Part shown: positions 41,925 through 57,963 of the stretch, one piece after another
Layout: each line of letters starts with the position of its first letter
How positions within the stretch are numbered: the stretch's first letter is position 1
Source of the DNA: Staphylococcus phage vB_SsapH-Golestan-100
Sequence record: LC647030.1
DNA: 64,000 nucleotides
Direction: 5' to 3' (one strand)
Position numbers and translations under genes: made by a program
Notes under the pieces: generated by a model
The model's database searches: none
Seen by the model: the letters and a program-made list of their open reading frames with translations, nothing else
Told to the model about the DNA's origin: nothing

Positions 41925-42419
41925 GTGAACAATCTGTTAGAGATTAGAGTAGACGCAATAAACCATGATGTTATTAGGGTAGTAGATAATCAAGGACAGT
42001 ACATAGATTACGATGTCTTACAAGACTTGTCCGTAAATGATTATAATGCTAACTCAGAGTTAAAGGAACAGCACGTAAAGTATAGACGCTATGCAGATGT
42101 TTTTAACCGTATTAGCTTTTACTTAGAGGAAGCTGAAACAAAGCTTTCTATGATAGGAAGTGAGCTTAACTTAGCTATTAGACAGGAGTATAAAGCTAGA
42201 GGAGATAAGCCACCTACTAAAGACGTTATTGAGGCAGAGATTATGACTAGACAAAAGTATACTGACCAACAACGTAATGTTAATACATTAACTTATCAAA
42301 AAGAGCAACTTAAGACAATTCTTAAAGCGTTTGAGCAACGTAAAGACATGTTAGTTCAATACACAGCTCATTTACGTAAAGACATTGAGCACGGAACAAG
42401 AGATTGGAAAATAAATTAA
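41925..42419 (+). CDS. hypothetical protein (164 aa), GTG start
   Basis: RBS aaaggag. Confidence 0.45.
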   Translation: MNNLLEIRVDAINHDVIRVVDNQGQYIDYDVLQDLSVNDYNANSELKEQHVKYRRYADVFNRISFYLEEAETKLSMIGSELNLAIRQEYKARGDKPPTKDVIEAEIMTRQKYTDQQRNVNTLTYQKEQLKTILKAFEQRKDMLVQYTAHLRKDIEHGTRDWKIN

Positions 42420-42427
42420 AATAAGGG

Positions 42428-42456
42428 TTGACATGCTTAAACAGCTATGTTATACT
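42428..42456 (+). promoter_or_regulatory. promoter TTGACA-17-TATACT
   Basis: Read directly from the sequence. Confidence 0.55.
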
Positions 42457-42501
42457 AAATAAGTAATAAATAATAAAACAAATTAGAGGAGGACATTTAA
42501 T

Positions 42502-43680: not shown

Positions 43681-43692
43681 TAGTAACTTTAT

Positions 43693-43721
43693 AAGCTAGG
43701 TTATCACCTAGCTTTCATTTT
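43693..43721 (+). terminator. hairpin aagctaggt/acctagctt followed by a weak T tract
   Basis: Read directly from the sequence. Confidence 0.4.
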
Positions 43722-43755
43722 GAATAAATTATATAAAAAAAGGAGTTTTATATAC

Positions 43756-45048
43756 ATGTCACGTAAAAAACAAAGTGAAAACACGAACACAACACAGGTG
43801 GCAGGAGAACCACTAGATGCCTTATCAGTATTGAAACTAGGTAAAGATGTAGGTTTGACACTAATGAGAGATAATACTTACGCTAATGTATCTAATTGGC
43901 TACCTACAGGTATCCCTCAATATGATAGGATTTTAGGAGGCGGTATTCCTTTTGGTCGTGTAACTGAGATTTTTGGTAAGAAGGCATCAGGTAAGAGTAC
44001 ATTTGCTTTAGCCTTATCAAAACAAGCTAGTGACCTTGATGTAGTAACTGTATGGATTGACGTAGAAGGAACTAGTGACATAAACCGTTTAACTCAGTTA
44101 GGGATTGACACTGAAAAGGTTTTTGCTATTCAGCCTGAATTTAACCCTAAAACTAACATGGTAGACCCACTTACAGTAGAGATTATTGGTGAGAAGATTG
44201 AGAACCTATTAAAGGTATTTAGAGATAACAGTCCCAATACACCTCTCTTAATCATATGGGACTCAATCGCAGCCACTTCATCTAAGGTAGAGATGGAAAG
44301 TGACTATGACTCAGAAAGACCTGGTTTAAAAGCTAAATCTCTAGCTAAGTTCTTTAACAAAGTAACACCATTAGTAAATGGTTATAACGTAGCTTTAGTT
44401 TGTATTAACCAAGCTCGTGATGTCATGGGTGGTAGCTTTGGTCATGGAGACAACATTGATTCTCCAGGAGGTAAAGCTCTTGAACACGTTGTATCACTTC
44501 AATTACTAGTTAACCAAGTAGATGCTAGTAAGTTTAATCAGAAAAAACCGACTTCTGCTAGTCAATATGGTGACTATGTAGGACATAACATGCAAGTAAC
44601 GACTAAAAAATCTAAAGTATCTAGACCTAACCAAAAAGCTAAAGCTTTCATTGCTAGTGAATATGAGTTAGATGATGGTACAGAGATTAATGGTTTTGAC
44701 CCTATGGTTAACTTTGCTATGTCAGCAGACAACAATAAGATTTTAGATTCTAGAGGTTCTTGGAAAGTGTTTGTAGATAAGCATGGTCAAGAACATAAGA
44801 AATACATGAAAGACTGGACAATGTTCTTTTACTATAATGAAGACCCTGAACTAATTGAAGAGATTGTAGGTAGAACTTACTTCAAGATGTTCCAAAAAGG
44901 ATACCCTGCATTTAATAATCAGATAATTGATGTTTCTAATAAGCTAGGTATGAAAGAACTAAAACGTTTGTTTGAAGAGAAAGAAGCTACAGAGAACTCA
45001 CAAGCAGAAGAAAGTGAGGTAAGTACAGATGGAAGCACAGAAGACTAA
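43756..45048 (+). CDS. RecA/UvsX-like recombinase
   Basis: Walker A GRVTEIFGKKASGKSTFALAL. The RBS aaaaaggag precedes the ATG at 43756. Confidence 0.7.
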   Translation: MSRKKQSENTNTTQVAGEPLDALSVLKLGKDVGLTLMRDNTYANVSNWLPTGIPQYDRILGGGIPFGRVTEIFGKKASGKSTFALALSKQASDLDVVTVWIDVEGTSDINRLTQLGIDTEKVFAIQPEFNPKTNMVDPLTVEIIGEKIENLLKVFRDNSPNTPLLIIWDSIAATSSKVEMESDYDSERPGLKAKSLAKFFNKVTPLVNGYNVALVCINQARDVMGGSFGHGDNIDSPGGKALEHVVSLQLLVNQVDASKFNQKKPTSASQYGDYVGHNMQVTTKKSKVSRPNQKAKAFIASEYELDDGTEINGFDPMVNFAMSADNNKILDSRGSWKVFVDKHGQEHKKYMKDWTMFFYYNEDPELIEEIVGRTYFKMFQKGYPAFNNQIIDVSNKLGMKELKRLFEEKEATENSQAEESEVSTDGSTED

Positions 45049-45376
45049 GTTTGAGCAAGCTGTAGAAGAGTACTTAAAGCAAGAAGGGGTCAACAAGACC
45101 CCTATTCCTTATATAGACATTAAACGTAGAATGCAAGAATGGTTTGAATCAGGAGAACCAATCTTAGTTGAAGATAGTAGTTTCCCTAGTTCTAGCTCCA
45201 CTAAGATTTATATTAATTATGTAGGAGATAGATGGGTTGGAGGATACTCTGAAGTATGGTATTTAGGTGAGGTAGTTAAAGTACCTGAAACTATTCATTA
45301 CTCAGACCTATATATCACGAACCCTACAATTAAAAAACGTATCGTACCTGTAAAGGAAAACCCATATGAAGTCTAA
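45029..45376 (+). CDS. hypothetical protein (115 aa)
   Basis: Overlaps both neighbouring genes. Confidence 0.4.
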   Translation: MEAQKTKFEQAVEEYLKQEGVNKTPIPYIDIKRRMQEWFESGEPILVEDSSFPSSSSTKIYINYVGDRWVGGYSEVWYLGEVVKVPETIHYSDLYITNPTIKKRIVPVKENPYEV

Positions 45377-46019
45377 TGGTAATAGATACATTACTGATAC
45401 AGATGGACTTAATGTTACATTCCAAAGAGACTTAGATAAACTATATCTTCAGTATGCTAACCTAAGACACGCTATCTATCAACAACACGCTTGGAGATTT
45501 GATAACCATGTCAAGAAAGAAGAACTGAGAGAGTATATAGATGAGCAGTTTATCTTGTTGACTAAGGAATACAATGTTGGTTCTTCTGTAGATTTTCCTG
45601 GTTATATAAAAACCAAACTAAGTCTACGTGTAAAAGAAAGCTATGTAAAGAATAGAGTTAAAAAAGAGCACAATGAATTCTTAGGTAGTAATGATGATTC
45701 TATTGAGATGCTAGCAGAAGCTACAGATGACTCATTAGAAGATGCAGAGCTCTTTAGTTATGTTATTGAAGAAGGAGAGTTTACTGACCTTCAAAAGTTA
45801 CTGCTCTCTTATTTAGTTAGTAACAAATACAAATTAGAACACCCTAGAATCATATCTATAATTTCTAAGTCAGAAAACATAAATCGTAAAGAAGTTGTAG
45901 AGGCTTATAATAGTCTTTATACTTACATTAAAGACCGTTGTAAAGAGTTTGAAGCTTTATCTCCAAACCTAGGGATAAATGAAAAGGGTCACGTTAATAC
46001 TAAGGTAGATAACTTGTAA
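45366..46019 (+). CDS. putative sigma-factor-like transcription regulator (217 aa)
   Basis: Its size and position correspond to the late sigma factor of Twort-like phages (from recollection). No sigma region could be confirmed by eye. Confidence 0.3.
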   Translation: MKSNGNRYITDTDGLNVTFQRDLDKLYLQYANLRHAIYQQHAWRFDNHVKKEELREYIDEQFILLTKEYNVGSSVDFPGYIKTKLSLRVKESYVKNRVKKEHNEFLGSNDDSIEMLAEATDDSLEDAELFSYVIEEGEFTDLQKLLLSYLVSNKYKLEHPRIISIISKSENINRKEVVEAYNSLYTYIKDRCKEFEALSPNLGINEKGHVNTKVDNL

Positions 46020-46110
46020 CTACCTTACCCTTTCTGCTATATTGTCTATAAGCCTTACTACAGTAGTGCTATATTAATTTTGAAAACAAATACAGAAAGG
46101 GGAATTTTTC

Positions 46111-46455
46111 GTGGGAACTCCTATTGATAAAGACCAAGCAACAGCAAAATTAGATACAGTTGAGGTTTATGTACCAGGCGCTAAAGAGACTAGAATTAAC
46201 TTTCTACAATTTACACCATTAGTAGTAGCTATTATTACATTACTAAACATGGTTTATACATCTATTACTGGTAATTCACTATTAGGTATTTCAGATGATG
46301 AATTAGCTTCATATGTAAACTTAATTATCTCAACTATTGCAATTGCTGTTACAGCATATAAAAACCTTAACATCACTAAAGGCGGACGTGCTAGAGCAGA
46401 AGTTGCTAAGCAGGCTATACCCGATAAAAAAAAGTACAAACAGCAAAATAAATAA
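46111..46455 (+). CDS. membrane protein (114 aa), GTG start
   Basis: Two hydrophobic helices. RBS gaaagggg. Confidence 0.45.
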   Translation: MGTPIDKDQATAKLDTVEVYVPGAKETRINFLQFTPLVVAIITLLNMVYTSITGNSLLGISDDELASYVNLIISTIAIAVTAYKNLNITKGGRARAEVAKQAIPDKKKYKQQNK

Positions 46456-46485
46456 AATATATACATAAGAGAGGATTGAAAGTCT

Positions 46486-47331
46486 ATGGCAGTTGAATCA
46501 AAAGACATTCTTGAAATCATCAAAGAGAAAGCCCCAGCTATTGATAACACATATTTACAAGTAAAGACAACACCTGATGGTTACACAGGAACTTATGAAG
46601 GGTTCTATTCTTACCTAGTTCAAAAAGATGGAGAAGAGTATGGTGTTTACCCTATTGAAACTACAGGAGCTAATGAGCTTAAAGTGTTTAAGAAATCTCC
46701 AATTATCATGACAGATGGAGAGGAAGTACACTTTGTAGTTAGTACTATGGATGACCCATTCCAACATCCTATCATTAAACAAGAGAGTGTTGGCAAGCAA
46801 ACAAAAGAACATGCTGTACTTCAAGCATTCTTAGCTTTTGCTAGCTCACGTTTCTCTATGACAGTTTACCACATTATGATTGCTGACGGTGAAGGTAGCT
46901 TCTCTTCAGTAGCTAATGCAGATGCTTTTGGTAACTTAGTAGAAACTAACGCTCAAGCTTCAGAAGAAATTGTTAAAGGTAAATTCGATAAGAACGCACA
47001 CGTGCAAGAAGTAGCATTTGATAAAGAGTCTGTTGAATTAAATATTGGTGAGACAGAACAAATCTTAACGCTTATTACACCTACTTATGCTTCTAATAAA
47101 GATGTTGTACTAACATCTTCTAGAGAGACAGTAGCTAAGATTAACAGTACAGGTCTTATTACAGCTGTAGCAGAAGGTGAAGCAACTATCACTGTTACAA
47201 CAGCTGATGGTAAATTACGTGCTAAAGCTACAGTAACAGTAAAGCCTAGCACAGGTAGTCAAGAGCCTGAAGCACCTACAAATGTGAAAGTAGACGCACA
47301 AGAAACAAGCGCTAACGTATCAGCAGAATAG
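46486..47331 (+). CDS. Ig-like (Big_2) domain virion protein
   Basis: C-terminal segment GEATITVTTADGKLRAKATVTVKP is Big_2-like. Confidence 0.55.
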   Translation: MAVESKDILEIIKEKAPAIDNTYLQVKTTPDGYTGTYEGFYSYLVQKDGEEYGVYPIETTGANELKVFKKSPIIMTDGEEVHFVVSTMDDPFQHPIIKQESVGKQTKEHAVLQAFLAFASSRFSMTVYHIMIADGEGSFSSVANADAFGNLVETNAQASEEIVKGKFDKNAHVQEVAFDKESVELNIGETEQILTLITPTYASNKDVVLTSSRETVAKINSTGLITAVAEGEATITVTTADGKLRAKATVTVKPSTGSQEPEAPTNVKVDAQETSANVSAE

Positions 47332-47399
47332 GTAGCATATAACAGCAGGGGCAACTCTGCTGATTATAAATATTTTAAAACAACTGGAGAGATGTACAA

Positions 47400-47921
47400 A
47401 TGGCAAACAAACTAAACTTGTATAAGGGAACCGAACTAGTAAAATCTGTAGATGCAAACCAAGAAGGTGCTACTGAAGTGCTTATCGAAGGGTTAAAGTC
47501 TAATACAAACTTTGCTAAAGGTGACTATAAGGTTTCTTTCAGCAATGATAGTGGTGAGTCTAATAAAGTAGATGTCCCAAGCTTCAAGACTTTAGCTATT
47601 TTAGTATCAGCTATTCAAGTAACTAATGCAACGGAAGCCTTAGAAGTCGGGGGCACAGCAACAATTAGTGCTTCAGTAACTCCTGAGAATGCTTCTGATA
47701 AGACTTTAGTATTTGTCTCAAACAATGAAGAGGTAGCAACAGTTGATGGCAGTGGTAAGATTACTGCTGTAGGTGAAGGTAGTACAAAAATTTCAGTAGC
47801 ATCTAATGATGGTAATGCTTCTTCAGAAGTAACAGTAAATGTAACTGTACCAGCACCATCAGAACCTGCTAATGTAACTGTAACACCAGCAGAAGAGTCA
47901 GCTACAATTTCAGTAGACTAA
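47400..47921 (+). CDS. Ig-like domain protein (173 aa): N-terminal ~65-aa domain plus a Big_2-like domain
   Basis: Segment GSTKISVASNDGNASSEVTVNVTV. Its N-terminal domain is shared with the 74-aa ORF and with the 561-aa beta-helix protein. Confidence 0.5.
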   Translation: MANKLNLYKGTELVKSVDANQEGATEVLIEGLKSNTNFAKGDYKVSFSNDSGESNKVDVPSFKTLAILVSAIQVTNATEALEVGGTATISASVTPENASDKTLVFVSNNEEVATVDGSGKITAVGEGSTKISVASNDGNASSEVTVNVTVPAPSEPANVTVTPAEESATISVD

Positions 47922-47940
47922 TAGGAAGGATGATTAACTA

Positions 47941-48165
47941 ATGGCTAAAACATTAAAAGTATACAAGAAATCAGGAGAGGAAGTTGCTCAACAAGAAGTT
48001 AGTGGCACAGGAGCTACCACAGTAGAGATTACTGGGCTTACAGCAGGCACTGACTATGCAGAAGGTGATTTCCAAGTATCCTTCACAGATGGTTCTAAGG
48101 AATCTAAAAAAGTAGATGTACCTGCATTTACAACAAATGCTTCAGAACCAACAGAAGGAGCTTAG
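47941..48165 (+). CDS. stand-alone copy of the ~65-aa N-terminal domain (74 aa)
   Basis: Aligns with residues 1-64 of the 173-aa protein, for example at VDVPAFTT versus VDVPSFKT. Confidence 0.4.
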   Translation: MAKTLKVYKKSGEEVAQQEVSGTGATTVEITGLTAGTDYAEGDFQVSFTDGSKESKKVDVPAFTTNASEPTEGA

Positions 48166-48170
48166 TAGAT

Positions 48171-48204
48171 AGACTAGGATTAATTTCCTAGTCTTTTTTT
48201 TTTT
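48171..48204. terminator. bidirectional rho-independent terminator
   Basis: 9-bp stem agactagga/tcctagtct, then a T11 run followed immediately by an A8 run. Confidence 0.6.
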
Positions 48205-48227
48205 AAAAAAAATATCCGCTTCTATGC

Positions 48228-48257
48228 TTGACAGCTATGAAGCGGTTATGATATACT
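48228..48257 (+). promoter_or_regulatory. promoter TTGACA-18-TGaTATACT, with the -35 element in the loop of the hairpin ccgcttc/gaagcgg (48216-48245)
   Basis: Read directly from the sequence. Confidence 0.55.
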
Positions 48258-48285
48258 AAGTATATACCAATTAGGAGGAGATATT

Positions 48286-48531
48286 ATGAGTAACGTATTT
48301 GCACAAGAACAATTTATTGACCGTTTAGAACAAGAAGGATTAGAAGTAGTAGAAGAGGATAGCTATTACACAGTAGAAGATGTAGAAGGTCATATTGCTA
48401 TTGTAGACTTTGTAGGTGACATAGTAAACGTTTCTGATAATGAAGGGGTTAGAGTATCACATAACGTTGACCAAATCTACTTAGCGTTCTATGCAGTGAT
48501 GGACGCACTGGATTATGAATTTGATGAATAA
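48286..48531 (+). CDS. small acidic protein (81 aa)
   Basis: RBS aggagg. Confidence 0.5.
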   Translation: MSNVFAQEQFIDRLEQEGLEVVEEDSYYTVEDVEGHIAIVDFVGDIVNVSDNEGVRVSHNVDQIYLAFYAVMDALDYEFDE

Positions 48532-48536
48532 AGTTC

Positions 48537-48565
48537 TTGACACCACTCAAGGACTTTAGTATAAT
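48537..48565 (+). promoter_or_regulatory. consensus promoter TTGACA-17-TATAAT
   Basis: Read directly from the sequence. Confidence 0.6.
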
Positions 48566-48595
48566 AGTATTATAATCAATTAGGAGGAATTAGTT

Positions 48596-49018
48596 ATGAA
48601 ATTACTAAAACAGATTATTAAGGTATTAGATGAGAGAGGTATTCAAGTAAATAACTTAAACATAGACGATGTGGTTAATGGAGAGTACGGAATTGAAATC
48701 AACAAAGAAATCACTATTGTCCATAGAGAAGGTTTGTATTATGCACTATATACGGAAGATGCTAGCTTAGAGGAGACATATTACAGTTCTCTAACAGAAG
48801 CATTAGAAAAGGTAGCTGACTATTTAAGTAGAGTAAAGGAAGGCTCTATCGTAAAATCTTTTCTTGGTGTATTCACATATAAAGTTATCAAACACAACAG
48901 TAAAGATTTGTATAACTTACTAAATGTAGATGACAACACCCTATTATATACAGAGTGTGAAAGTATGGACTCTATTCAAGACAAGATTAACAGAGGTCAG
49001 TTTTATGCAGAACAATAA
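48596..49018 (+). CDS. hypothetical protein (140 aa)
   Basis: RBS aggagg. Confidence 0.5.
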   Translation: MKLLKQIIKVLDERGIQVNNLNIDDVVNGEYGIEINKEITIVHREGLYYALYTEDASLEETYYSSLTEALEKVADYLSRVKEGSIVKSFLGVFTYKVIKHNSKDLYNLLNVDDNTLLYTECESMDSIQDKINRGQFYAEQ

Positions 49019-49337
49019 ATGGTACGCACTATGTGAATATAAAGGTAAAGGGAAGAATAAAAAGCCTTATCAAGTCCAAGCCTCTACAAGTAAAGAAAAG
49101 CTTTTAGATAGAAAGGATAGTTTAGAGTTAGAGTATCCTGATAGAGAATATGCAATAAAGTTAACAACAACCTTTGACAAAGAAAGAAAGTGGAGCGGGC
49201 TTAATCCGCTTCTCTTACTTAGAGTATATAAGCAATTGTATATTGTAAGTAGGAGTGATGACCCTACTAGATTAAATGTTGCATATAGCCTTCTGTTCAC
49301 ACAGAGGGTTTTTTATTTAAATGTTGACAGGATTTAA
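49005..49337 (+). CDS. hypothetical protein (about 110 aa)
   Basis: RBS agagg precedes the ATG at 49005. It overlaps the upstream gene by 14 nt. A terminator overlaps its 3' end. Confidence 0.3.
   Translation: MQNNKWYALCEYKGKGKNKKPYQVQASTSKEKLLDRKDSLELEYPDREYAIKLTTTFDKERKWSGLNPLLLLRVYKQLYIVSRSDDPTRLNVAYSLLFTQRVFYLNVDRI
49289..49318 (+). terminator. rho-independent terminator
   Basis: Stem ccttctg/cagaggg with one G-U pair, followed by TTTTTTATTT. Confidence 0.45.
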
Positions 49338-49352
49338 GTAGTGTGATATAGT
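49324..49352 (+). promoter_or_regulatory. promoter TTGACA-17-TGaTATAGT
   Basis: Read directly from the sequence. Confidence 0.55.
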
Positions 49353-49382
49353 TAGTATATAAATTAATTAGGAGGAAAAGTA

Positions 49383-49568
49383 ATGGAGAATAGAGACATT
49401 ATCAGTAACATATTAACAGAGTTAGAGTACATTGATACTAGTGAACTAAACCATAAACAACAAATGATGGTAGCTAGAGTAGAATCATTGTTAGATGACT
49501 TAGCATGGGAATTACAAGAAGAGGAAGCGGTTGAGTTTATGAAACAAATCAATGAGGAGGAAAAGTAA
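49383..49568 (+). CDS. small acidic protein (61 aa)
   Basis: RBS aggagg. Confidence 0.45.
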   Translation: MENRDIISNILTELEYIDTSELNHKQQMMVARVESLLDDLAWELQEEEAVEFMKQINEEEK

Positions 49569-50971
49569 TGAAACTATATTTAAACAGTAATATCGCAGAA
49601 GGAACACCTGAAGAGTTAGTAACTTATAAAGAACTATTAAAGGAGAGAGGCCTAGACTCTGAGAAGTCATTGTTCCACTTTGGACATATGCATCAACCAA
49701 CTGAAGAGGAAGCGGATGAACAAGAAGTAGATAATTCTGTATATGATAAAGGAGCTTTCTATACAGTAACTGAGGAGGCTGAGGACTCACCATTACCTGT
49801 AGGGGCTATTCTCCAACATCTACACGGTAGAATATTCAGTGACTCTAAAGGACAACAATGTATCATCTCTAGACCATCTTTTGTAGATAGAGGTAATACA
49901 CATTGGTTTGATGATAGTATTAACCAAGACCGTTTTGAACTAGCTAAACAATTAGGTATCCAACTAACGGACACTACAGACCTAGCACAAGCAACTGAAG
50001 GTAAGTACTTCAAAGTAACAGAAGAGCACTCAGACTTAAGTGTAGGAGACCTTGTTACGATTGCTGAGGATGATAGAGATAACCTACCTCAGTGTAAGGA
50101 TAAGCATGGTAACTTCTATTATGTATACCTAGGTGACCTAGAGCTAGTAGAAGATAACTCAGAATCAACTCTAAGCTCTACAGATGAAGCGGAAACCCCT
50201 TCTACAGAACTTAAAGTAGGAGATAGAGTAAAAGTATTAAAGAGTGAAGGAGGAGCTGTAGGAGAGGCTACTGTAACTGCTGTACTAGAAGATGGTGATG
50301 TAAGATTAGAAGGCAAGAGTGATAGTGGTGTGTACTCATATAGATGGAGTAACAATATTTCAAACTTAGAGAAGGTTAAAGAAAAACCTGCATCCTTTGG
50401 GGCAATACAAGCTAAAGCCTACTTAGAGGATAAGTCAATAGACCAAGTAATTGAAGAAGTACAAAGCAAACACAAGCAAGAGTCTGATAATGCAAGAGTA
50501 GAGGAAGAAATCTATGCCTATTATGAAGTTGTAGACCCTGATGTATTTGCTAGTAGTGTAGAGAAAGGGACTGTATTCAAGGTGATAGGAAATACTTATA
50601 CTCTACTAAACCAAGAAGGTAAGGACAGAGAATATATTAACGTAGTTACTTCTACAGGATTGACTCAAACAAGCCCTCTGAGAGATAGTGTGATTAAACC
50701 TATCATTAATGATTCATTCATTGCAGAACGCTTCAAGTTTGCTAAAGAAGTAGGCATTGTGCTTGCAGTAGATACAGACTTTGAGGAAGAGTGTAAAGAC
50801 CACCACTTTAAGGTTACAGAGGAGGAACCACTCTCTAACTTTACCCCTACAGACATTCTAACTGTCCGTAGAGACGATAACACTAATGCTATTGCTTTCC
50901 AAGACCGTAATGGCAAGACACAGTATACACTACTGGTAGATGTAAGAGAGATTGCTAGACCAAGTAAATAA
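49568..50971 (+). CDS. acidic protein (467 aa) with an internal tandem duplication of about 75 aa
   Basis: Segments FELAKQLGIQL...KYFKVTEEHSDLS and FKFAKEVGIVL...HHFKVTEEEPLS align as two copies of one domain. Confidence 0.5.
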   Translation: MKLYLNSNIAEGTPEELVTYKELLKERGLDSEKSLFHFGHMHQPTEEEADEQEVDNSVYDKGAFYTVTEEAEDSPLPVGAILQHLHGRIFSDSKGQQCIISRPSFVDRGNTHWFDDSINQDRFELAKQLGIQLTDTTDLAQATEGKYFKVTEEHSDLSVGDLVTIAEDDRDNLPQCKDKHGNFYYVYLGDLELVEDNSESTLSSTDEAETPSTELKVGDRVKVLKSEGGAVGEATVTAVLEDGDVRLEGKSDSGVYSYRWSNNISNLEKVKEKPASFGAIQAKAYLEDKSIDQVIEEVQSKHKQESDNARVEEEIYAYYEVVDPDVFASSVEKGTVFKVIGNTYTLLNQEGKDREYINVVTSTGLTQTSPLRDSVIKPIINDSFIAERFKFAKEVGIVLAVDTDFEEECKDHHFKVTEEEPLSNFTPTDILTVRRDDNTNAIAFQDRNGKTQYTLLVDVREIARPSK

Positions 50972-50981
50972 ATAACCATCG

Positions 50982-51016
50982 ACCGCTTCTAGATAGATAA
51001 AGAAGCGGTTCTTTTA
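50982..51016 (+). terminator. rho-independent terminator
   Basis: Stem accgcttct/agaagcggt followed by tcttttatgttt. Confidence 0.55.
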
Positions 51017-51018
51017 TG

Positions 51019-51120
51019 TTTGAGTAACATAATTTAAGATGCTGTCATACCAAGGTTTAAGTAAGGTTATTACAAGGCTTAAGTAAGAAAAAATAGAGTA
51101 AATCCTATATTTGAGTAACA
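51019..51120. repeat. two pairs of direct repeats in an intergenic region
   Basis: tttgagtaaca occurs at 51019 and 51110. aagg(t/c)ttaagtaag occurs at 51052 and 51075. Confidence 0.5.
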
Positions 51121-51126
51121 AAGTGT

Positions 51127-51155
51127 TTGACAGCCCCTCTATTATATGTTATCAT
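51127..51155 (+). promoter_or_regulatory. promoter TTGACA-17-TATCAT
   Basis: Read directly from the sequence. Confidence 0.55.
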
Positions 51156-51185
51156 TAGGTATAGTCAATTAGAGGAGGAATTAAT

Positions 51186-51524
51186 ATGAGAATGGTTAGT
51201 ATATATGAGTATTTCAAAGACAAGGAAGGACAACGGTTGAGTGTAGGAGATAATAAAGAGGTACTGTTCAACTCAGTACGTTACCACGGTTCTGAAGAGG
51301 AGTTGGCTTTATACTTTAAGTATAAGGAGTACCCAATAGCAATAAGAGTAGATAAACCTCAAGCAGATTTAAGATTACGATTAAACAAGAAGATAACAGG
51401 GCTACAAAAGGATACCTTTACCCCTGTAGAGAACCTAGACTCAACCTTATTAACCTATCTAGGTAAGTTTGCAGAAGAGATGGAAGAAAAAGTAGAGTAT
51501 AAACTATTTGATTGGAGGAATTAA
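51186..51524 (+). CDS. hypothetical protein (112 aa); paralog of the minus-strand 129-aa ORF at 53367-53756
   Basis: RBS agaggagg. Segment YEYFKDKEGQRLSVGDNKEVLFNSVRYHGSEEELALYFKYK aligns with the 129-aa protein. Confidence 0.5.
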   Translation: MRMVSIYEYFKDKEGQRLSVGDNKEVLFNSVRYHGSEEELALYFKYKEYPIAIRVDKPQADLRLRLNKKITGLQKDTFTPVENLDSTLLTYLGKFAEEMEEKVEYKLFDWRN

Positions 51525-51525
51525 T

Positions 51526-51627
51526 ATGGTTACAGTAGGAGCGTTATTTACAGGATTCTTTGTAGTCCTTGTAATAGGTATAATGATAGCAGGACTCGTT
51601 ACACTAGTAATAGATAACAAGAAGTAA
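51526..51627 (+). CDS. 33-aa hydrophobic peptide with a single TM helix
   Basis: RBS GGAGGA lies 7 nt upstream. The ATG is 1 nt after the upstream stop. The peptide is MVTVGALFTGFFVVLVIGIMIAGLVTLVIDNKK. Confidence 0.35.
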   Translation: MVTVGALFTGFFVVLVIGIMIAGLVTLVIDNKK

Positions 51628-51650
51628 ATAAGAGAAGCGGAGGAGATATA

Positions 51651-51878
51651 ATGAGTTTAGTAACAGTAATAGTATTAACTGTAGTCATAGCCATGTTGTT
51701 AGGCTTAATAGCAAGTAAACTAATATTGTGGTTTGTAGATGCTTGTCAAAGGGATGAGAACAATATAACAGAGATTAGAGTAGTATTAACCCTATTAATA
51801 GTCAGCTTAGGAGTAGACCTAGCCTTTGCTGTTGATGGAGCAGTAAGAATACAAAATAGAATCCTATACTTTTTGTAG
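51651..51878 (+). CDS. small membrane protein (75 aa)
   Basis: RBS ggaggag. Two hydrophobic helices. Confidence 0.45.
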   Translation: MSLVTVIVLTVVIAMLLGLIASKLILWFVDACQRDENNITEIRVVLTLLIVSLGVDLAFAVDGAVRIQNRILYFL

Positions 51879-51885
51879 ATAGAAG

Positions 51886-51912
51886 CGGAGACCTTTACGG
51901 TCTCTTTTTTTT
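51886..51912 (+). terminator. rho-independent terminator
   Basis: Stem gagacc/ggtctc followed by a T8 run. Confidence 0.6.
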
Positions 51913-51960
51913 GTCTATAATAGCTTGACAAATAGGGTGAAGTATGCTTTATTGACAAAG

Positions 51961-52250
51961 GCGTAATAGTGTGGTAGTGGAGGGTAGAGGTTGAATAGTA
52001 GTGACATGGAGGCTGATAGATAGAGTCGAAGTCGGTTAGCGTGCTTGGGGCTTCCTCTATTCTTTTACCATTTGTTTATTTCCTTCCTCTACTATTCCTC
52101 CCTTTGATTGGCTGATTAATTGTTTGGTTGTTTCTCTATTACTCTTCCCTTCCTTACTCCCTATGCTATTGTCCCTCTATTGTTTTCCTACTCCTCCATT
52201 ACTCTACTCCTATATAATAAAAGGCAATAGAGCTATTACCCTACTGCCTT
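51961..52250. other. non-coding strand-asymmetric region, a candidate structured RNA or cis-acting site
   Basis: No ORF of 60 codons or more. Plus strand is C-poor (G/A/T) over 51961-52040 and almost pure C/T over 52050-52215, with degenerate CCTCTAyT repeats. Confidence 0.3.
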
Positions 52251-52283
52251 TATACTTACTATTGTTATTACTATTATTATACT

Positions 52284-53276
52284 CTACATGTTAAGTAACT
52301 TACGAGCCCAATCAGGAGAATTATCACAAAACGCTTTAACTTCTTCTATGTTATTTATAACCCCTTTTTGAATCTTGTAGATATACACAAAGTATTTAGT
52401 TATGAAAGCTTGGAAAGGTTCATACCTATTACCCTCTATAAACTCATACTGCATCTCTTCTGATAATAAATTTATCTCTGTAAAGAATGTATTATACATA
52501 GTATCAAATAAGCAAGGTATATCCTTACTATACTCACTTAGTAATAGTATTCTTTCCTCATGACTTAGCGATACATCAAAATCAATAATACTTTTAATAG
52601 TTTTAGGTAATGAGTCGTAGTCTAGTAGTATAGATAATAGTTCTTTCTTATTAAATATAAGGTTGAGTTTCTTGTATGCGACTATAAAGTCTTCTTTGAC
52701 TACCTTTTTATCTACTAAGTCTTGTAATTTACTGTAATAGTTTTTAATTTGTTTATTCATATTAACCTTAGTAAATGCTGTCTCTAGATTATAAAATTCT
52801 TGTATAGAACTACTCTCTATATTAACACCTAACTTATGTTTAAGCCATTTTGATTCTAGCTCAGATAGTCTACGTTCATAGATAGATTCATCTTTTGTTT
52901 CTATATGGTCTCCATGTATAGAGTCATAGTATACAGCATCAATTATATAAGTATCAGCATTATCAAATCCGTATTTATCTAAGGCTTTTTTAAGTAGTTT
53001 ACCACTACCCTTATACTTTGAATCGGGCTTTCCTTTATGTTTCCCTATATATGCTCTACCTGATTGTTTAAACACTGTTATATAGACATAACCATACATA
53101 TGTTCTGAAAGTTTTTCAGACTGACCTCTTACGCTATGACCAAAAGTAAAAACATAGCTATAATGTTTTAATCTTCCTTTTCTACATTCTGATTGTACAA
53201 TGTTATTTCTAACGTCTCTTACTTGAATTTCACCTAAACCTTCTTGGTATACAAAATTATTTATTTTTTCTGTCAT
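52284..53276 (-). CDS. free-standing GIY-YIG homing endonuclease
   Basis: Segment YGYVYITVFKQSGRAYIGKHKG, then KYGFDNAD and ESKWL, follows an I-TevI-like arrangement. The RBS AGGAG lies 9 nt before the ATG at 53276. Confidence 0.65.
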   Translation of the reverse strand: MTEKINNFVYQEGLGEIQVRDVRNNIVQSECRKGRLKHYSYVFTFGHSVRGQSEKLSEHMYGYVYITVFKQSGRAYIGKHKGKPDSKYKGSGKLLKKALDKYGFDNADTYIIDAVYYDSIHGDHIETKDESIYERRLSELESKWLKHKLGVNIESSSIQEFYNLETAFTKVNMNKQIKNYYSKLQDLVDKKVVKEDFIVAYKKLNLIFNKKELLSILLDYDSLPKTIKSIIDFDVSLSHEERILLLSEYSKDIPCLFDTMYNTFFTEINLLSEEMQYEFIEGNRYEPFQAFITKYFVYIYKIQKGVINNIEEVKAFCDNSPDWARKLLNM

Positions 53277-53306
53277 ATCTTTCATCTCCTTATTTGATAT
53301 ACTACT

Positions 53307-53335
53307 AGTATATAATAAAACTCTATCCAAGTCAA
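53307..53335 (-). promoter_or_regulatory. minus-strand promoter TTGACT-17-TATACT, with the -35 element in the loop of hairpin 53319-53346
   Basis: Read directly from the sequence. Confidence 0.5.
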
Positions 53336-54998: not shown

Positions 54999-55436
54999 CT
55001 ATTTTAATCTACCTTGCTCTAAACTTACATTAGTATAGTTATTTTTTAAATCTTCGAGAGTCATTCTTTTAGATAAACTATAATTCTCATCTAGTAGTCT
55101 ATAAACTTGATATTCATTTCTTTCTGCATAGTAACTACTCTCTTCTACTACTAAAGTAAACCATTCTCCATATGCTTCGATGTCATCTCCAGGTAGCCAA
55201 TCATTTTCTGTGAGTAGTTCTAAAACTTTAATTAGCATGTCATTATCCGACCAATGCCTTCTACCACCTGTTTCATTTTCTTGACGAGTGATATAACTAT
55301 CATAACCTATGCAAACCTTAACCTTATTGTTAATACCTACTGCTTCTTCATATAAATCTACGTGATTTAGTTCGATACCTTTTTCACTCATAGCTTTTAC
55401 AATTAAACTTAATAATTCTGTTGTGTTATCTACCAT
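54999..55436 (-). CDS. hypothetical protein (145 aa); weak similarity to the plus-strand 140-aa ORF at 48596
   Basis: RBS aggagg. Confidence 0.45.
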   Translation of the reverse strand: MVDNTTELLSLIVKAMSEKGIELNHVDLYEEAVGINNKVKVCIGYDSYITRQENETGGRRHWSDNDMLIKVLELLTENDWLPGDDIEAYGEWFTLVVEESSYYAERNEYQVYRLLDENYSLSKRMTLEDLKNNYTNVSLEQGRLK

Positions 55437-55448
55437 TATAGTTCCTCC

Positions 55449-55646
55449 TTATTTATCTGCTACATATTCATAGAACCCGACTTCTTCTCTGAGCTTAGCT
55501 TCTGATAGTGATTTAGTATGCTCTCTAGAAACATCTTCTCCTTCTACCCATTTTACAAGCTCAATAAGTGCTTCTTCTAAATACGCTCTAGGACAATCTT
55601 CATTCTCCCAGTAGTTAACTCCTTCTTTTTCCCAACTATTACTCAT
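55449..55646 (-). CDS. hypothetical small protein (65 aa)
   Basis: RBS ggaggag. Confidence 0.4.
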   Translation of the reverse strand: MSNSWEKEGVNYWENEDCPRAYLEEALIELVKWVEGEDVSREHTKSLSEAKLREEVGFYEYVADK

Positions 55647-55909
55647 TATAGCTCCTCCTCTATTAGTTCGTAAGTTTTATGAAAAATGTCATAATCACAA
55701 GCATAAAATTCTCCTTCAACACCCTTTATGACATAGCTGTCTTTAGGTACTACCATAGTACCTTCTAGTGTATTTACAACAAGTATATAAGTATCACTTG
55801 ATTCATAAGCTAAGTGTACTGTACCACCACTCCAATCATATAACTCTTGTTTATTATCTCCTTTATATTGCATAACCTCTACTTCTACTGGTTTCTTTCT
55901 AGCTAACAT
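55646..55909 (-). CDS. hypothetical protein (87 aa)
   Basis: RBS gaggagg. Confidence 0.45.
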   Translation of the reverse strand: MLARKKPVEVEVMQYKGDNKQELYDWSGGTVHLAYESSDTYILVVNTLEGTMVVPKDSYVIKGVEGEFYACDYDIFHKTYELIEEEL

Positions 55910-55939
55910 TATAAACCTCCTCTATTAGTTGTTAATATG

Positions 55940-55977
55940 ATTATATAATAAAAAACTACCTATGTCAATAGGTAGTT
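55940..55977 (-). promoter_or_regulatory. composite minus-strand terminator and promoter
   Basis: 10-bp hairpin 55954-55977 followed by a T-run. TTGACA spans the loop and stem (55963-55968). A 17-nt spacer leads to TATAAT at 55940-55945. Confidence 0.55.
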
Positions 55978-55985
55978 TTAGCTTA

Positions 55986-57671
55986 CTAATACTGTATTTC
56001 TTTCCCAGCAATAAGTTTATTTTGATATTGTCCTTGACGGATGTAGATAGTGCTTTCAGGTGCTCCTGAACTTATACTGAATTCACTACCAAACCCTGCG
56101 CAATTGTCTAACCACATATTACTTCCTGAAGATGTTTGGAAATCTTTTCCTTGGTAGCTCTCAAAGCCTATACATCCTAGATTCCAAGAGTTAGTACCCT
56201 GATTAACATCAGCTATATTTCCTCCATCATTTCTACCGTAAGTACCGTTAACCCGTATGACAGTTAATCCATCATGAACAGTAGAGCCATTATTAGATTT
56301 AGCACCTGCTGTACCTTTTTCAAATCCATTATCTAAACCTATACAATCTATCTCAGTTATAATAGGTTTAGAAGAATCCGCACCTATATGATAGTTAAAC
56401 CCGTCCATATAGTTATTAGATGCTGTTGATTTACTTACTACTACTTCTTTACCTCCAATAACCTCAAGACCATTACCATTAGTTTGAGAAGAGAAGTTTA
56501 AAATACAATTATTAACATATAGATTATTGTTTTTGTTTAGCTCAAATCTAGCTGGTCTAGCTCCCCCATATATGTTTAGTTTTTCTATATAGAAATTATT
56601 TGGTACATTAGTAGCTAACAAGTTCTGAGAAGCTAACAATGGTATAACCATATTATTAGGAGTTTTAGAATTAAAGTTAACAAAAACTTTTGTTCCGTCA
56701 GAAAACCAAGAAAAAGGAGTCTCCTCTACCATAGCTAAGGAGCTAACATTTACAAATTCATTATAGATGTTGTTACTTGCCTCACTAAAGTCTACGACTC
56801 TCTTAACTGCTGACCTTGTAAACTCATAAGTGTTATTCTTACCATAGGACTTAACCCATGTCGGCTCATCTGCCATGAATAGATTAACATTAGAGCCTAG
56901 GCCTATTATGTTTATACTCATATTGTTTATTGGTAATAAAAGAACACCGTTAGTTCTAAAGTAGTTACCCTCGTTAATATAAAGAGTATCACCAGTACTT
57001 AATACTGATTGAGCTTTTTTTAATGTTTTAAAAGAGCTATTTTGAGTTGAGCCATCGTTACTATCATTACCATTAGTACCATCTACATAAACCTCTTTAC
57101 CGCCTGTAACTTTATTATCTTCTATGTTGTATTTCACACCAAAGGTACCTCTAGCATCAGTCATTATTCTACCTTTTAAAGGGTATTCTTTTACAGGAAA
57201 ATCTAAAGGAGTGTTTACAGTAATAGGTAACTTAGGAGCAAAGTTACCATCAAGCCCTGGTATACCTTGAGCACCTTGTTCCCCTTTTAACTCTTGTTTG
57301 TCAGCCTCTGTTAAATCATTAAAAGTTAACTTATCACCTTTAGCACCTCCTATAGACTCTAACCACTCTTCAGGTGTACCAGTAAACCCATTATCTACTG
57401 CTATATCATAAGCAGATTTAGGCTTAACTAGTAAGTGGTCTTTGAAGTAGAAAGAAATCTCTTTATAAGAAGATTCTAGTGTTGTAAACTCAGGTACTAC
57501 GACCTTCTCTGATTCATAGTTGTCTCCCATCCAAGCTATATAAAACTCCCCTTGAGGGTATGTAGTATTTGGAGCCAGGTTAGCTATAATAACGGAGCCT
57601 TGGTCACCTTCTATATTATAGCCTTTTGCTAATAAATTACCTTCCTTATCATAAGCTTCTAAATGTGGCAT
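55986..57671 (-). CDS. right-handed parallel beta-helix (pectin-lyase-fold) protein with an N-terminal ~65-aa domain shared with the virion Ig-like proteins
   Basis: The C-terminal half has repetitive N/G-rich beta-helix-like rungs (NNCILNFSSQTNGNGLEVIGG...). The N-terminus, including VVVPEFTT, aligns with ORFs 47400 and 47941. Confidence 0.55.
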   Translation of the reverse strand: MPHLEAYDKEGNLLAKGYNIEGDQGSVIIANLAPNTTYPQGEFYIAWMGDNYESEKVVVPEFTTLESSYKEISFYFKDHLLVKPKSAYDIAVDNGFTGTPEEWLESIGGAKGDKLTFNDLTEADKQELKGEQGAQGIPGLDGNFAPKLPITVNTPLDFPVKEYPLKGRIMTDARGTFGVKYNIEDNKVTGGKEVYVDGTNGNDSNDGSTQNSSFKTLKKAQSVLSTGDTLYINEGNYFRTNGVLLLPINNMSINIIGLGSNVNLFMADEPTWVKSYGKNNTYEFTRSAVKRVVDFSEASNNIYNEFVNVSSLAMVEETPFSWFSDGTKVFVNFNSKTPNNMVIPLLASQNLLATNVPNNFYIEKLNIYGGARPARFELNKNNNLYVNNCILNFSSQTNGNGLEVIGGKEVVVSKSTASNNYMDGFNYHIGADSSKPIITEIDCIGLDNGFEKGTAGAKSNNGSTVHDGLTVIRVNGTYGRNDGGNIADVNQGTNSWNLGCIGFESYQGKDFQTSSGSNMWLDNCAGFGSEFSISSGAPESTIYIRQGQYQNKLIAGKEIQY

Positions 57672-57732
57672 ATTATAGTCTCCTATCTATTTGTGTATTA
57701 TATGAGTAATATAACATCTTATTCACATTAGG

Positions 57733-57963
57733 TTAGACACAATCTACCATCCACTCCCAATCCCAAAAGTCTCTTATCTTATAACCATCTAACTCATGTT
57801 TATTGCCTTTTAGTATACCTGTAATAATATACCTATCATGGCCTTCTCTTACGTATTCTTCACCCAGCTCTTCTAAGAGGTCTTTTGTATGATTTTGAGT
57901 ACCTGCATATATTGCTGTTTTACTATCCTCCTCAATTACATATAGAGAATAAATCTCATACAT
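57733..57963 (-). CDS. hypothetical protein (76 aa)
   Basis: ORF in the early-gene block. Confidence 0.4.
   Translation of the reverse strand: MYEIYSLYVIEEDSKTAIYAGTQNHTKDLLEELGEEYVREGHDRYIITGILKGNKHELDGYKIRDFWDWEWMVDCV

What the first reader, a model, noticed from the sequence alone, without database searches (positions are those of the whole stretch)
51961..52250. Strand-asymmetric non-coding region with degenerate CCTCTAyT repeats and an upstream promoter
Between the two gene blocks lies about 300 nt with no credible ORF. On the plus strand, the left third is C-poor and rich in GGAGG and TAGAGG. The right two-thirds is almost pure C/T and is built from about four degenerate units, each starting (t)CCTCTA(c/t)T.

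The two arms are partly complementary, for example gaatagtag at 51994 against ctactattc at 52088, and tagagg against cctcta.

A TTGACA-17-TTTATT promoter at 51926-51954 points into the region from the left. A hairpin at 52223-52250 would terminate minus-strand transcripts.

A plus-strand transcript would be rich in CCUCC, an anti-Shine-Dalgarno-like motif. The minus strand is rich in GGAGG. Possible roles are a structured ncRNA, a ribosome or sRNA decoy, a replication origin, or a packaging or terminal-repeat boundary.
Basis: seen in the sequence. Interest (0 to 1): 0.7.

Follow-up and report, generated by a model that had tools for sequence, protein, structure and literature searches.

The report
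Terminal-repeat boundary of a staphylococcal phage
This gene-free stretch is most likely where the packaged DNA of a Twort-like Staphylococcus phage ends (the right edge of its long terminal repeat), a known kind of feature and not a structured RNA or a ribosome decoy.

Summary
The compositional observation is real. 51955-52046 is the most G-rich stretch of the 64-kb window and 52047-52215 the most pyrimidine-rich. CTCTAYT occurs five times against 0.4 expected. The arms do not fold better than shuffled sequence, Rfam finds nothing, and the proposed promoter has a poor -10.

The window is a Twort-like Staphylococcus phage. Its closest relatives, S2G3 and Fi4S2, are deposited with an exact 12,469-bp direct terminal repeat. 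The last base of that repeat aligns to window 52046, exactly at the G-to-C/T switch. In S2G3 the two strongest G-to-C switches of the whole genome are its two repeat boundaries.

In Kayvirus 812 the last ~85 bp of the right genome end is also unusually G-rich and sits in the tail channel.

Best reading (confidence 0.6):
- The left arm is the last ~90 bp of the terminal repeat.
- 52046|52047 is the end-forming cut.
- The right arm is the first unique DNA, with repeated copies of the cut-site flank (CTTCCTCTA).

Caveats: there are no reads for this phage, no second boundary was found in the window, and the base before the cut differs from S2G3. This is a new member of a known kind, of modest interest.

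The parts
51651..51878 (+). Last gene of the early, rightward small-gene cluster (75-aa predicted protein). It is the homologue of the last gene inside the S2G3/Fi4S2 terminal repeat.
   Evidence: ORF list. tblastn gives 98.7% identity to S2G3 and Fi4S2 12065-12289, with two copies per record, one in each repeat copy.
51887..51911 (+). Intrinsic terminator of the rightward early genes (GGAGACC-TTTAC-GGTCTC followed by a T run).
   Evidence: Terminator scan. Identical in S2G3.
51894..51953 (+). Promoter-like elements pointing towards the boundary: TTTACG-16-TATAAT (51894-51921) and TTGACA-17-TTTATT (51925-51953). TTGACAAA boxes lie at 51925 and 51952.
   Evidence: plus direct reading. Conserved in S2G3. 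Activity is untested. The segment is part of the module copied several times in the S2G3-specific insertion.
51955..52046 (+). G-rich, C-poor left arm: the inferred last ~90 bp of the long terminal repeat, that is, the right end of the packaged genome.
   Evidence: G 0.38 and C 0.087, the top G-rich stretch of the window. Aligns to the last bases of the exact S2G3 repeat. In phage 812 the last ~85 bp of the right end are G-tract-rich and occupy the neck and tail channel (PMC12886913).
52037..52049 (+). Boundary core TAGCGTGCTT|GGG. The inferred end-forming cut lies between 52046 and 52047.
   Evidence: S2G3 right boundary is TAGCGTGCTG|GGGG and its left boundary is TAGTAGCCTG|GGGT. Phage K has TAAGTACCTG|GG at both boundaries, inverted. 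This is the only exact match to TAGYRKSCTKGGG in the window. The looser TARNNNSCTKGG finds only one other site, at 26015.
52047..52215 (+). Pyrimidine-rich right arm just outside the repeat. It carries five CTCTAYT motifs and a duplicated 27-nt unit that begins with the cut-site flank CTTCCTCTA (52051 and 52083).
   Evidence: It is a gapped homologue of S2G3 12470-12646 (alignment score 86 against shuffles 46.7 +/- 7.6).
52220..52251 (-). Intrinsic terminator closing the leftward gene block. It has A/T-flanked arms, so it may be partly bidirectional.
   Evidence: Terminator scan: 14 pairs, 5 of them G-C.
52284..53330 (-). Homing-endonuclease-like gene, the first gene of the leftward block. It is context rather than part of the signal, and it marks where the locus differs from S2G3.
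   Evidence: phrog_314 homing endonuclease, E = 4.4e-13, partial match. 91.8% nucleotide identity to the 'endonuclease' gene of phage PSU4 at the equivalent position. Absent from S2G3.

Best explanation
The locus is the right-hand boundary of the phage's long direct terminal repeat. This is where the end of the packaged linear genome is formed. It sits in the gap where the rightward early genes and the leftward gene block converge.

Shown:
- The window is a Twort-like (Herelleviridae-type) Staphylococcus phage.
- 48.2-51.9 kb is a cluster of small genes behind near-consensus host-type promoters.
- The homologous base of window 52046 is the last base of an exact 12,469-bp terminal repeat in the two closest relatives.
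- The G-rich|C-rich switch marks both repeat boundaries of that relative.

Inferred:
- In this phage too, end formation cuts at or within a base or two of 52046|52047 (TAGCGTGCTT|GGGG).
- The G-rich left arm (51955-52046) is therefore the last ~90 bp of virion DNA. By analogy with Kayvirus 812, this is the piece that lies in the neck and tail channel and enters the host first.
- The pyrimidine-rich right arm lies just outside the repeat in replicating concatemers. It carries repeated partial copies of the sequence next to the cut (CTTCCTCTA / CTCTAYT). These probably serve as binding or recognition elements for the packaging machinery. Their position matches the short repeat arrays that flank the repeat boundaries in K-like phages.
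- The two flanking terminators stop the converging transcription.
- Whether the weak promoter-like sites fire towards the boundary is unknown.
For: 1. Identity of the phage and the locus.
- Megablast finds Staphylococcus phages S2G3 and Fi4S2 at 93% identity, and PSU4 (Twortvirinae) for the endonuclease gene.
- Four 11-12/12 consensus promoters, each in front of a small ORF, lie in 48.2-51.2 kb.

2. Terminal repeat in the relatives.
- The S2G3 record carries an exact 12,469-bp direct terminal repeat with 0 mismatches. It ends ...GGTTAGCGTGCTG|GGGGCTTCC.
- Fi4S2 has the same repeat length.
- In the alignment this boundary falls at window 52046|52047.

3. The compositional signature.
- A genome-wide scan of S2G3 places the two highest G-to-C switch scores at 12473 and 141308. 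These are 4 and 15 nt from its two repeat boundaries.
- The same scan of the window places its maximum at 52050.

4. A shared core motif.
- The S2G3 boundaries share TAG...CTG|GGG.
- The phage K boundaries carry TAAGTACCTG|GG.
- The K left end was confirmed by read pile-ups in IME-SA1/2 (PMC3896407).

5. Precedent in Kayvirus 812.
- The 85 terminal bp of the right repeat contain clustered G-tracts and occupy the tail channel.
- Packaging starts at the left end (PMC12886913).
- K and Stab22 repeats also start C-rich and end G-rich.

6. Repeat arrays just outside the boundaries elsewhere.
- 812 and K have 35-bp tandem repeats before the right repeat copy (PMC6445280).
- AAGTCAACA arrays follow the right boundary in K and Stab22, and lie at the equivalent position in PSU4, whose boundary is not annotated.
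- Here CTCTAYT occurs 5 times against 0.4 expected. The S2G3 flank has 3 against 0.33.

7. Recombination at the end.
- S2G3 has a 540-bp insertion, absent from Fi4S2, built only from partial copies of the last ~220 bp of the repeat.
- One copy stops 24 nt before the annotated end, and one copy is inverted.
- This behaviour is expected of a recombinogenic physical DNA end.
Against: - No sequencing reads or virion-end data exist for this phage. The assignment rests on homology to two near-identical records from one source. Their end-determination method is not documented, and no paper was found.
- No second boundary was found in the 52 kb to the left or the 12 kb to the right. There is no other G-to-C switch in non-coding DNA, no second motif match in a plausible place, and no shared motif at the 48.2-kb junction where the early cluster begins.
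- The window's gene order differs from S2G3. The replication block abuts the middle of what is S2G3's repeat. The repeat of this phage must therefore differ from S2G3's at its left side, and might differ altogether.
- The base before the inferred cut is T here and G in S2G3.
- The direction of the composition switch also follows the change of coding strand. Both S2G3 boundaries are convergent points too.
- The proposed role of the CTCTAYT units is pure inference.
Confidence: 0.6

Rival explanations
1. The locus is only a spacer between converging transcription units, with no end-forming role in this phage. It would consist of two terminators, decayed remnants of neighbouring genes, and base composition that merely exaggerates the purine-rich coding-strand bias on each side.
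For: - The switch coincides with the window-wide flip of GC and AT skew at 52 kb.
- The right arm is a gapped homologue of an S2G3 stretch that overlaps the annotated 3' end of a minus-strand gene.
- No second repeat boundary is detectable in the window.
- No structure is detected.
Against: - The two arms are the most extreme G-rich and pyrimidine-rich stretches of the whole window, and they lie in non-coding DNA where coding bias should not act.
- The CTCTAYT motif is enriched beyond composition.
- No protein-level similarity to the S2G3 gene remains.
- In S2G3 the same signature coincides to within 4-15 nt with both ends of an exact terminal repeat.
Confidence: 0.2
2. The locus is a small non-coding RNA gene. 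One version is a plus-strand RNA from the TTGACA/TTTATT or TTTACG/TATAAT promoter. The other is a minus-strand RNA downstream of the 52220-52251 hairpin. Either would act as a regulator, possibly by base pairing through its purine-rich or pyrimidine-rich sequence.
For: - Promoter-like sites point into the region and are conserved in S2G3.
- In phage K, RNA-seq reported a minus-strand small RNA, snc004 (8370-8665). It spans the equivalent intergenic region and the repeat boundary at 8486 (PMC9241854).
- In the S2G3 insertion the promoter-like module is followed about 100 nt later by a terminator, in three copies.
Against: - No Rfam match.
- No fold better than shuffles for any candidate transcript; the two arms alone fold worse than shuffles.
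- The -10 element is poor, and promoter-like sites are not enriched.
- No plus-strand terminator follows before the boundary.
- Only two near-identical relatives exist, so covariation cannot be assessed.
- This reading is not exclusive of the boundary reading.
Confidence: 0.12
3. The locus is a replication origin. The CTCTAYT units would be iterons for an initiator, and the strand asymmetry would mark the switch of leading and lagging strand.
For: - Five copies of a short motif lie within 150 nt.
- The cumulative GC skew peaks here.
Against: - The skew flip is explained by gene orientation.
- The right arm is less A+T-rich (61.5%) than the window (66%), so no unwinding element is evident.
- Motif spacing is irregular.
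- The neighbouring genes are a homing-endonuclease-like gene and unknowns, not an initiator.
Confidence: 0.05

Closest known systems
Direct terminal repeat ends of Staphylococcus phages S2G3 (PV037055.1) and Fi4S2 (PV037056.1)
   Same: - Directly homologous. The terminator, the promoter-like boxes, the G-rich arm and the core ...GGTTAGCGTGCT(G/T)|GGGGCTTCCTCTA are 93-96% identical.
- A pyrimidine-rich flank with CTCTAYT motifs follows in both.
   Different: - The window has T where they have G just before the cut.
- It has an extra ~32-nt CTTCCTCTA unit.
- It lacks the three genes that follow in S2G3, including a Panacea-domain gene, and has a homing-endonuclease-like gene in their place.
- Upstream, the window joins the replication block to the middle of what is S2G3's repeat, so the left part of the repeat cannot be the same.
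Long terminal repeat boundaries and G-tract-rich right genome end of Kayvirus phages K and 812
   Same: - The boundary lies between the last early repeat-encoded gene (with its terminator) and the first leftward gene (with its terminator).
- The last ~85-90 bp of the repeat are unusually G-rich for an AT-rich genome.
- Short repeats lie just outside the boundary.
- The cut-site core resembles TA(A/G)NNNSCTG|GG (PMC12886913; PMC6445280; PMC3896407).
   Different: - K has the same 11-mer (AAGTACCTGGG) in inverted orientation at its two boundaries. S2G3 has its core in direct orientation.
- K's outer repeats are AAGTCAACA and a 35-bp tandem unit, not CTCTAYT.
- K has runs of 4-5 G, whereas the window has mostly GG pairs.
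- K has no long pyrimidine tract outside the right boundary.
Terminal redundancy of Bacillus phage SPO1 (host-takeover module)
   Same: It is a long exact terminal repeat carrying small early genes behind strong host-type promoters. The repeat is bounded by fixed ends. (Own knowledge; also summarised in PMC3896407.)
   Different: There is no sequence relationship. The SPO1 boundary sequences were not examined here.
T7 concatemer junction (fixed ends, terminal repeat duplicated during packaging, transcription into the junction needed for processing)
   Same: This is a functional analogy only. Both have fixed-end direct repeats, cis signals at the repeat edge, and promoter-like elements reading towards the cut. 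(Own knowledge of the T7 literature; not tested here.)
   Different: The T7 repeat is about 160 bp and depends on T7 RNA polymerase pausing and hairpin-primed synthesis. No hairpin potential beyond chance is present here.

Membership tests
Long direct terminal repeat boundary of Twort-/SPO1-like (Herelleviridae-type) phages | Lies at the downstream end of a cluster of small early genes with host-type promoters, facing the leftward gene block | tested here: met
   Four 11-12/12 promoters, each in front of a small ORF, lie in 48.2-51.2 kb. ORFs converge at 51878 and 52284. S2G3, PSU4, Stab22 and K have the same layout.
Long direct terminal repeat boundary of Twort-/SPO1-like (Herelleviridae-type) phages | The homologous nucleotide is the end of an exact terminal repeat in related genomes | tested here: met
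   The 12,469-bp repeat of S2G3 and Fi4S2 ends at the base aligned to window 52046.
Long direct terminal repeat boundary of Twort-/SPO1-like (Herelleviridae-type) phages | Two-fold read coverage on the repeat side and a pile-up of read ends at the boundary in this phage's own virion DNA | not testable with these tools
   No reads are available for the window's source.
Long direct terminal repeat boundary of Twort-/SPO1-like (Herelleviridae-type) phages | A second (left) boundary a few kb upstream that delimits the repeat | tested here: inconclusive
   There is no other non-coding G-to-C switch. There is no second motif match apart from a coding-region hit at 26015. No shared motif was found at the 48.2-kb junction. 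A left boundary with a different sequence cannot be excluded.
Long direct terminal repeat boundary of Twort-/SPO1-like (Herelleviridae-type) phages | Unusually G-rich last ~85 bp of the right genome end, as described for phage 812 | tested here: met
   The last 70 nt before 52046 have G 0.40 and C 0.09, the top G-rich stretch of the window. K and Stab22 have G 0.29-0.30 in the same place. See also PMC12886913.
Long direct terminal repeat boundary of Twort-/SPO1-like (Herelleviridae-type) phages | Cut-site core shared with the other boundary or with relatives | tested here: inconclusive
   The window has TAGCGTGCTT|GGGG. S2G3 has TAGCGTGCTG|GGGG and TAGTAGCCTG|GGGT, and K has TAAGTACCTG|GG. There is one substitution at the base before the cut, and no second copy in the window.
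Structured non-coding RNA (Rfam family or new) | Match to a covariance model | tested here: not met
   There are no hits at gathering score in the whole window. The best hit near the locus reaches 23.9 bits against a threshold of 60.
Structured non-coding RNA (Rfam family or new) | Folding energy clearly below that of shuffled sequence | tested here: not met
   z-scores range from -1.82 to +1.38 for all segments and both strands of the window.
Structured non-coding RNA (Rfam family or new) | Compensatory base changes among relatives | not testable with these tools
   Only two relatives exist. They are near-identical to each other and 93-96% identical to the window in the alignable part.
Replication origin with iterons | Regularly spaced iterons next to an A+T-rich unwinding element | tested here: not met
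   Motif spacing is 32, 47, 41 and 27 nt. The right arm has 61.5% A+T against 66% for the window.
Replication origin with iterons | Adjacent initiator gene | tested here: not met
   The neighbouring genes have no Pfam match. PHROGs gives a homing endonuclease and proteins of unknown function.

The most novel reading that the evidence does not exclude
The compositional dyad itself could be the signal that defines genome ends in this phage lineage. The dyad is a purine/G-rich stretch followed by a pyrimidine/C-rich stretch, which reads the same on either strand, and it is present at both repeat boundaries of S2G3. It might work through A-form-prone or easily nicked DNA. Alternatively, RNAs arriving from either side are purine-rich and could form stable RNA-DNA hybrids that expose the cut site. 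In this reading the CTTCCTCTA repeats act as loading sites. This would be a previously undescribed type of terminase recognition signal for phages with long terminal repeats.
Probability: 0.15. Interest if true: 0.6.

Novelty: new member of a known kind. Interest (0 to 1): 0.3.

Why it matters
- Knowing the physical ends is needed to write the genome of a therapeutic-type staphylococcal phage correctly, and to understand which genes are present in two copies and enter the cell first.
- The cis signals that define the ends of long terminal repeats in SPO1- and Twort-like phages are still poorly characterised.
- This lineage offers a simple sequence signature that coincides with both repeat boundaries in the one lineage examined: the strongest G-to-C switch in the genome plus a TA..CT(G/T)|GG core. 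It could be tested as a predictor of ends from sequence alone.
- A pyrimidine tract with repeated cut-site flanks could be tested for terminase binding.
- Beyond that, the finding is an expected feature of this phage family.

Tried and rejected
- Rfam. Permissive search on 51000-53000 and gathering-score search on the whole window gave nothing meaningful. No tRNAs were found.
- Folding of both strands as RNA and DNA, whole region and sub-segments. No z-score fell below -1.82 for the window. The structured-RNA, cruciform and hairpin-priming ideas were dropped. Only the S2G3 left boundary folds notably (z = -2.79, a 10-bp inverted repeat around the cut).
- Tandem-repeat and repeat finders. Only weak 27-nt pairs were found. 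There are no other copies of the region in the window.
- More relatives.
  - A distant blastn search of the phage collection found only S2G3 and Fi4S2.
  - IMG/VR gave no hit by DNA pattern or by protein.
  - Scans of metagenome and genome collections with a 17-mer of the core gave 43 hits, all chance matches with unrelated flanks.
  - Exact-protein look-ups gave nothing.
- Search for the left repeat boundary in the window by composition, by K-like and S2G3-like motifs, and by shared k-mers at 48.2 kb. Nothing was found.
- PSU4. It shares CTTGGGGCTT at the equivalent place, but its record is not opened at the repeat ends. No relative's record starts or ends there, so this lead stayed open.
- Right arm as a decayed gene. 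It has nucleotide-level homology to the S2G3 flank but no protein-level similarity to the Panacea-domain protein.
- No paper describing S2G3 or Fi4S2 was found.

Full report
**What is in the sequence**

The region lies where genes converge. The plus-strand ORFs stop at 51878 and an intrinsic terminator follows at 51887-51911. The minus-strand ORFs begin with 52284-53330, which is closed by a terminator-like hairpin at 52220-52251. The window-wide GC and AT skews flip sign here.

- 51955-52046 has G 0.38 and C 0.087.
- 52047-52215 is 77.5% pyrimidine, with G 0.095.
- These are the most G-rich and the most pyrimidine-rich stretches of their lengths in the whole 64 kb.
- The largest local G-to-C switch in the window is at 52050.

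The 'CCTCTAyT units' are very degenerate as repeats. Two 27-nt pairs are 74% identical, and Tandem Repeats Finder reports nothing. The motif is nevertheless truly enriched. CTCTAYT occurs five times against 0.4 in dinucleotide shuffles of the arm itself.

**What did not hold**

The complementarity of the arms is no more than composition gives.
- RNA folding z-scores are -0.93 (plus strand) and -1.82 (minus strand).
- DNA folding across the junction gives -0.39.
- Candidate transcripts range from +1.38 to -1.43.
- Rfam finds nothing.

The promoter is TTGACA-17-TTTATT at 51925-51953, with a poor -10. A better consensus match, TTTACG-16-TATAAT at 51894-51921, overlaps the terminator. Promoter-like sites are not enriched in this region.

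**What the window is**

Megablast identifies a Twort-like Staphylococcus phage. The closest records are S2G3 and Fi4S2, both on Staphylococcus capitis, at 93-97% identity over most of the window. The endonuclease-like gene at 52284-53330 matches Twortvirinae phage PSU4.

The stretch 48.2-51.9 kb holds small ORFs behind four near-consensus host-type promoters. This is the pattern of the early genes encoded in the terminal repeats of this phage family.

**The key result**

The S2G3 record begins and ends with an exact 12,469-bp direct repeat, with 0 mismatches. Fi4S2 has a repeat of the same length.
- The repeat ends ...GGTTAGCGTGCTG|GGGGCTTCCTCT.
- In the alignment with the window this falls between 52046 and 52047, exactly at the switch from the G-rich arm to the pyrimidine-rich arm.
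- The other S2G3 boundary reads ...TTTTAGTAGCCTG|GGGTAGCCCC. About 200 nt of G-rich TAGGGGTA-like repeats precede it and C-rich sequence follows it.

I scanned the complete S2G3 record with the same G-to-C switch score. The two best positions in 153.8 kb are 12473 and 141308. These lie 4 and 15 nt from the two repeat boundaries.

**Comparison with better-studied relatives**

Phage K:
- The annotated boundaries are ...TAAGTACCTG|GGAATTCTTTTACC (left) and ...GGTCTACC|CAGGTACTT (right). This is the same 11-mer in inverted orientation.
- Read pile-ups in IME-SA1/2 confirm the left end GGAATTCTTTTACC (PMC3896407).
- The cores fit a loose common frame, TA(A/G)NNNSCT(G/T)|GG. Its only other match in the window is in a coding region 26 kb away.

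Phage 812:
- The genome is packaged from the left end.
- The last ~85 bp of the right repeat lie in the neck and tail channel in a partly A-like form.
- The authors single out the clustered G-tracts there as notable for such an AT-rich genome (PMC12886913).
- The window's G-rich arm is about 90 bp long and sits in the same position.
- K, Stab22 and S2G3 repeats all start C-rich and end G-rich.

Short repeat arrays just outside the boundaries are also known:
- a variable 35-bp tandem repeat before the right repeat in 812 and K (PMC6445280);
- AAGTCAACA arrays after the right boundary in K and Stab22, and at the equivalent position in PSU4, whose boundary is not annotated.

The window's right arm occupies that position. 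Its duplicated unit begins with CTTCCTCTA, the sequence immediately next to the cut. The arm is a gapped homologue of the S2G3 flank, with alignment score 86 against 46.7 +/- 7.6 for shuffles. S2G3 also shows CTCTAYT enrichment.

**An independent hint that this is a DNA end**

S2G3 differs from Fi4S2 by a 540-bp insertion at 126,631-127,170, with flanks 100% identical.
- The insert consists only of partial copies of the last ~220 bp of the repeat.
- There are three direct copies. One reaches to 24 nt before the annotated end.
- One inverted copy makes a palindrome with ~75-bp arms.
- The joints lie at short microhomologies.

Such products are what one expects from a recombinogenic physical end. 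A mobile promoter-terminator cassette is an alternative explanation.

**Mechanism proposed**

Shown: the locus is homologous to a repeat end in the two closest relatives. The signature is specific to the repeat ends in S2G3.

Inferred:
- End formation cuts at about 52046|52047.
- The G-rich arm is the leading, tail-channel end of the packaged DNA.
- The pyrimidine-rich arm with repeated cut-site flanks is a recognition or loading region in concatemers.
- The two terminators insulate the site from converging transcription.

I cannot say how the repeat is duplicated. The direct orientation of the S2G3 cores, against the inverted orientation in K, is unexplained.

**Weak points**

- No reads exist for this phage.
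- The method behind the S2G3 and Fi4S2 ends is undocumented.
- The base before the cut differs (T here, G in S2G3).
- No second boundary is detectable in the window.
- The window's order also differs from S2G3. The replication block (plus strand here, minus strand in S2G3) abuts position 6785 of what is S2G3's repeat, at a T11A8 junction near 48204. The repeat in this phage is therefore either short (about 3.8 kb, with an unrecognisable left edge) or organised differently.
- Both S2G3 boundaries are also points of converging genes. Strand bias therefore contributes to the direction of the switch, though not to its extreme size in non-coding DNA.

**Rivals**

- A plain convergent spacer: 0.2.
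- A small RNA: 0.12. This is not exclusive of the boundary reading. Phage K has a reported minus-strand RNA, snc004, across its equivalent region (PMC9241854).
- A replication origin: 0.05.

**Verdict**

It is a new member of a known kind, with a lineage-specific sequence signature. Interest is 0.3.

Noticed in passing
window 48166-48260 (junction near 48204): The late and replication gene block ends with a terminator and a T11 run. It then joins directly, through an A8 run, to early genes that correspond to position 6785 onwards of the S2G3 terminal repeat. In S2G3 that block (40922-52226 and beyond) lies on the opposite strand and continues into other genes. One inversion with breakpoints at S2G3 6785 and 40922 would convert one order into the other. 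It is unclear whether this is a real rearrangement or an assembly join.
   Followed up: partly
S2G3 PV037055.1 126,631-127,170 (L013 1649-2188): A 540-bp insertion, absent from Fi4S2, built only of partial copies of the last ~220 bp of the terminal repeat. It has three direct copies and one inverted copy, which forms a palindrome with ~75-bp arms. The joints lie at microhomologies.
   Followed up: yes
window 52284-53330 (-): A 348-aa homing-endonuclease-like gene (phrog_314, partial match). It is 91.8% identical at nucleotide level to the 'endonuclease' of phage PSU4 at the equivalent position. It replaces three S2G3 genes, including a Panacea-domain gene.
   Followed up: partly
window 19296-21296 (-): A 2-kb minus-strand cassette inside the plus-strand block, between a 458-aa ORF (17916-19292) and an 852-aa ORF (21409-23967). 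Their S2G3 counterparts are annotated tail fiber protein and DNA helicase. The cassette is absent from S2G3. It encodes a Sak single-strand annealing protein (PF06378), DUF2483 and DUF6551.
   Followed up: partly
window about 27700, about 35115 and about 41170 (compared with S2G3 63534-65416, 55180-56114 and 47966-49055): S2G3 carries extra segments of 1.9, 0.9 and 1.1 kb at these three points, which the window lacks. By S2G3 annotation they hold a transposase splitting an SbcD-like gene, a homing endonuclease within the ribonucleotide reductase large subunit, and an HNH endonuclease splitting the DNA polymerase. The window's versions of these genes appear uninterrupted.
   Followed up: no
window 55986-57671 (-): A 561-aa minus-strand ORF with no Pfam match. 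It lies in a stretch (about 55917-57754) with no counterpart in S2G3.
   Followed up: no
PSU4 OL436245.1 140,940-141,930 (L012 4941-5931): A 1-kb non-coding stretch just before the terminal-repeat-encoded genes. It holds at least eight copies of a CGTAAAAAGCATAAGTA-like unit. This is probably the left repeat-boundary region of that phage, analogous to the 35-bp tandem repeats of K and 812.
   Followed up: no
S2G3 141,120-141,420 (L003 about 6120-6420): The left repeat boundary of S2G3 is preceded by many TAGGGGTA-like G-runs, which have G-quadruplex-type spacing. It is bracketed by a 10-bp inverted repeat, AAAGGGGGTA/TACCCCCTTT. DNA folding gives z = -2.79. An annotated minus-strand CDS (141143-141427) spans the boundary and is probably spurious.
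   Followed up: partly
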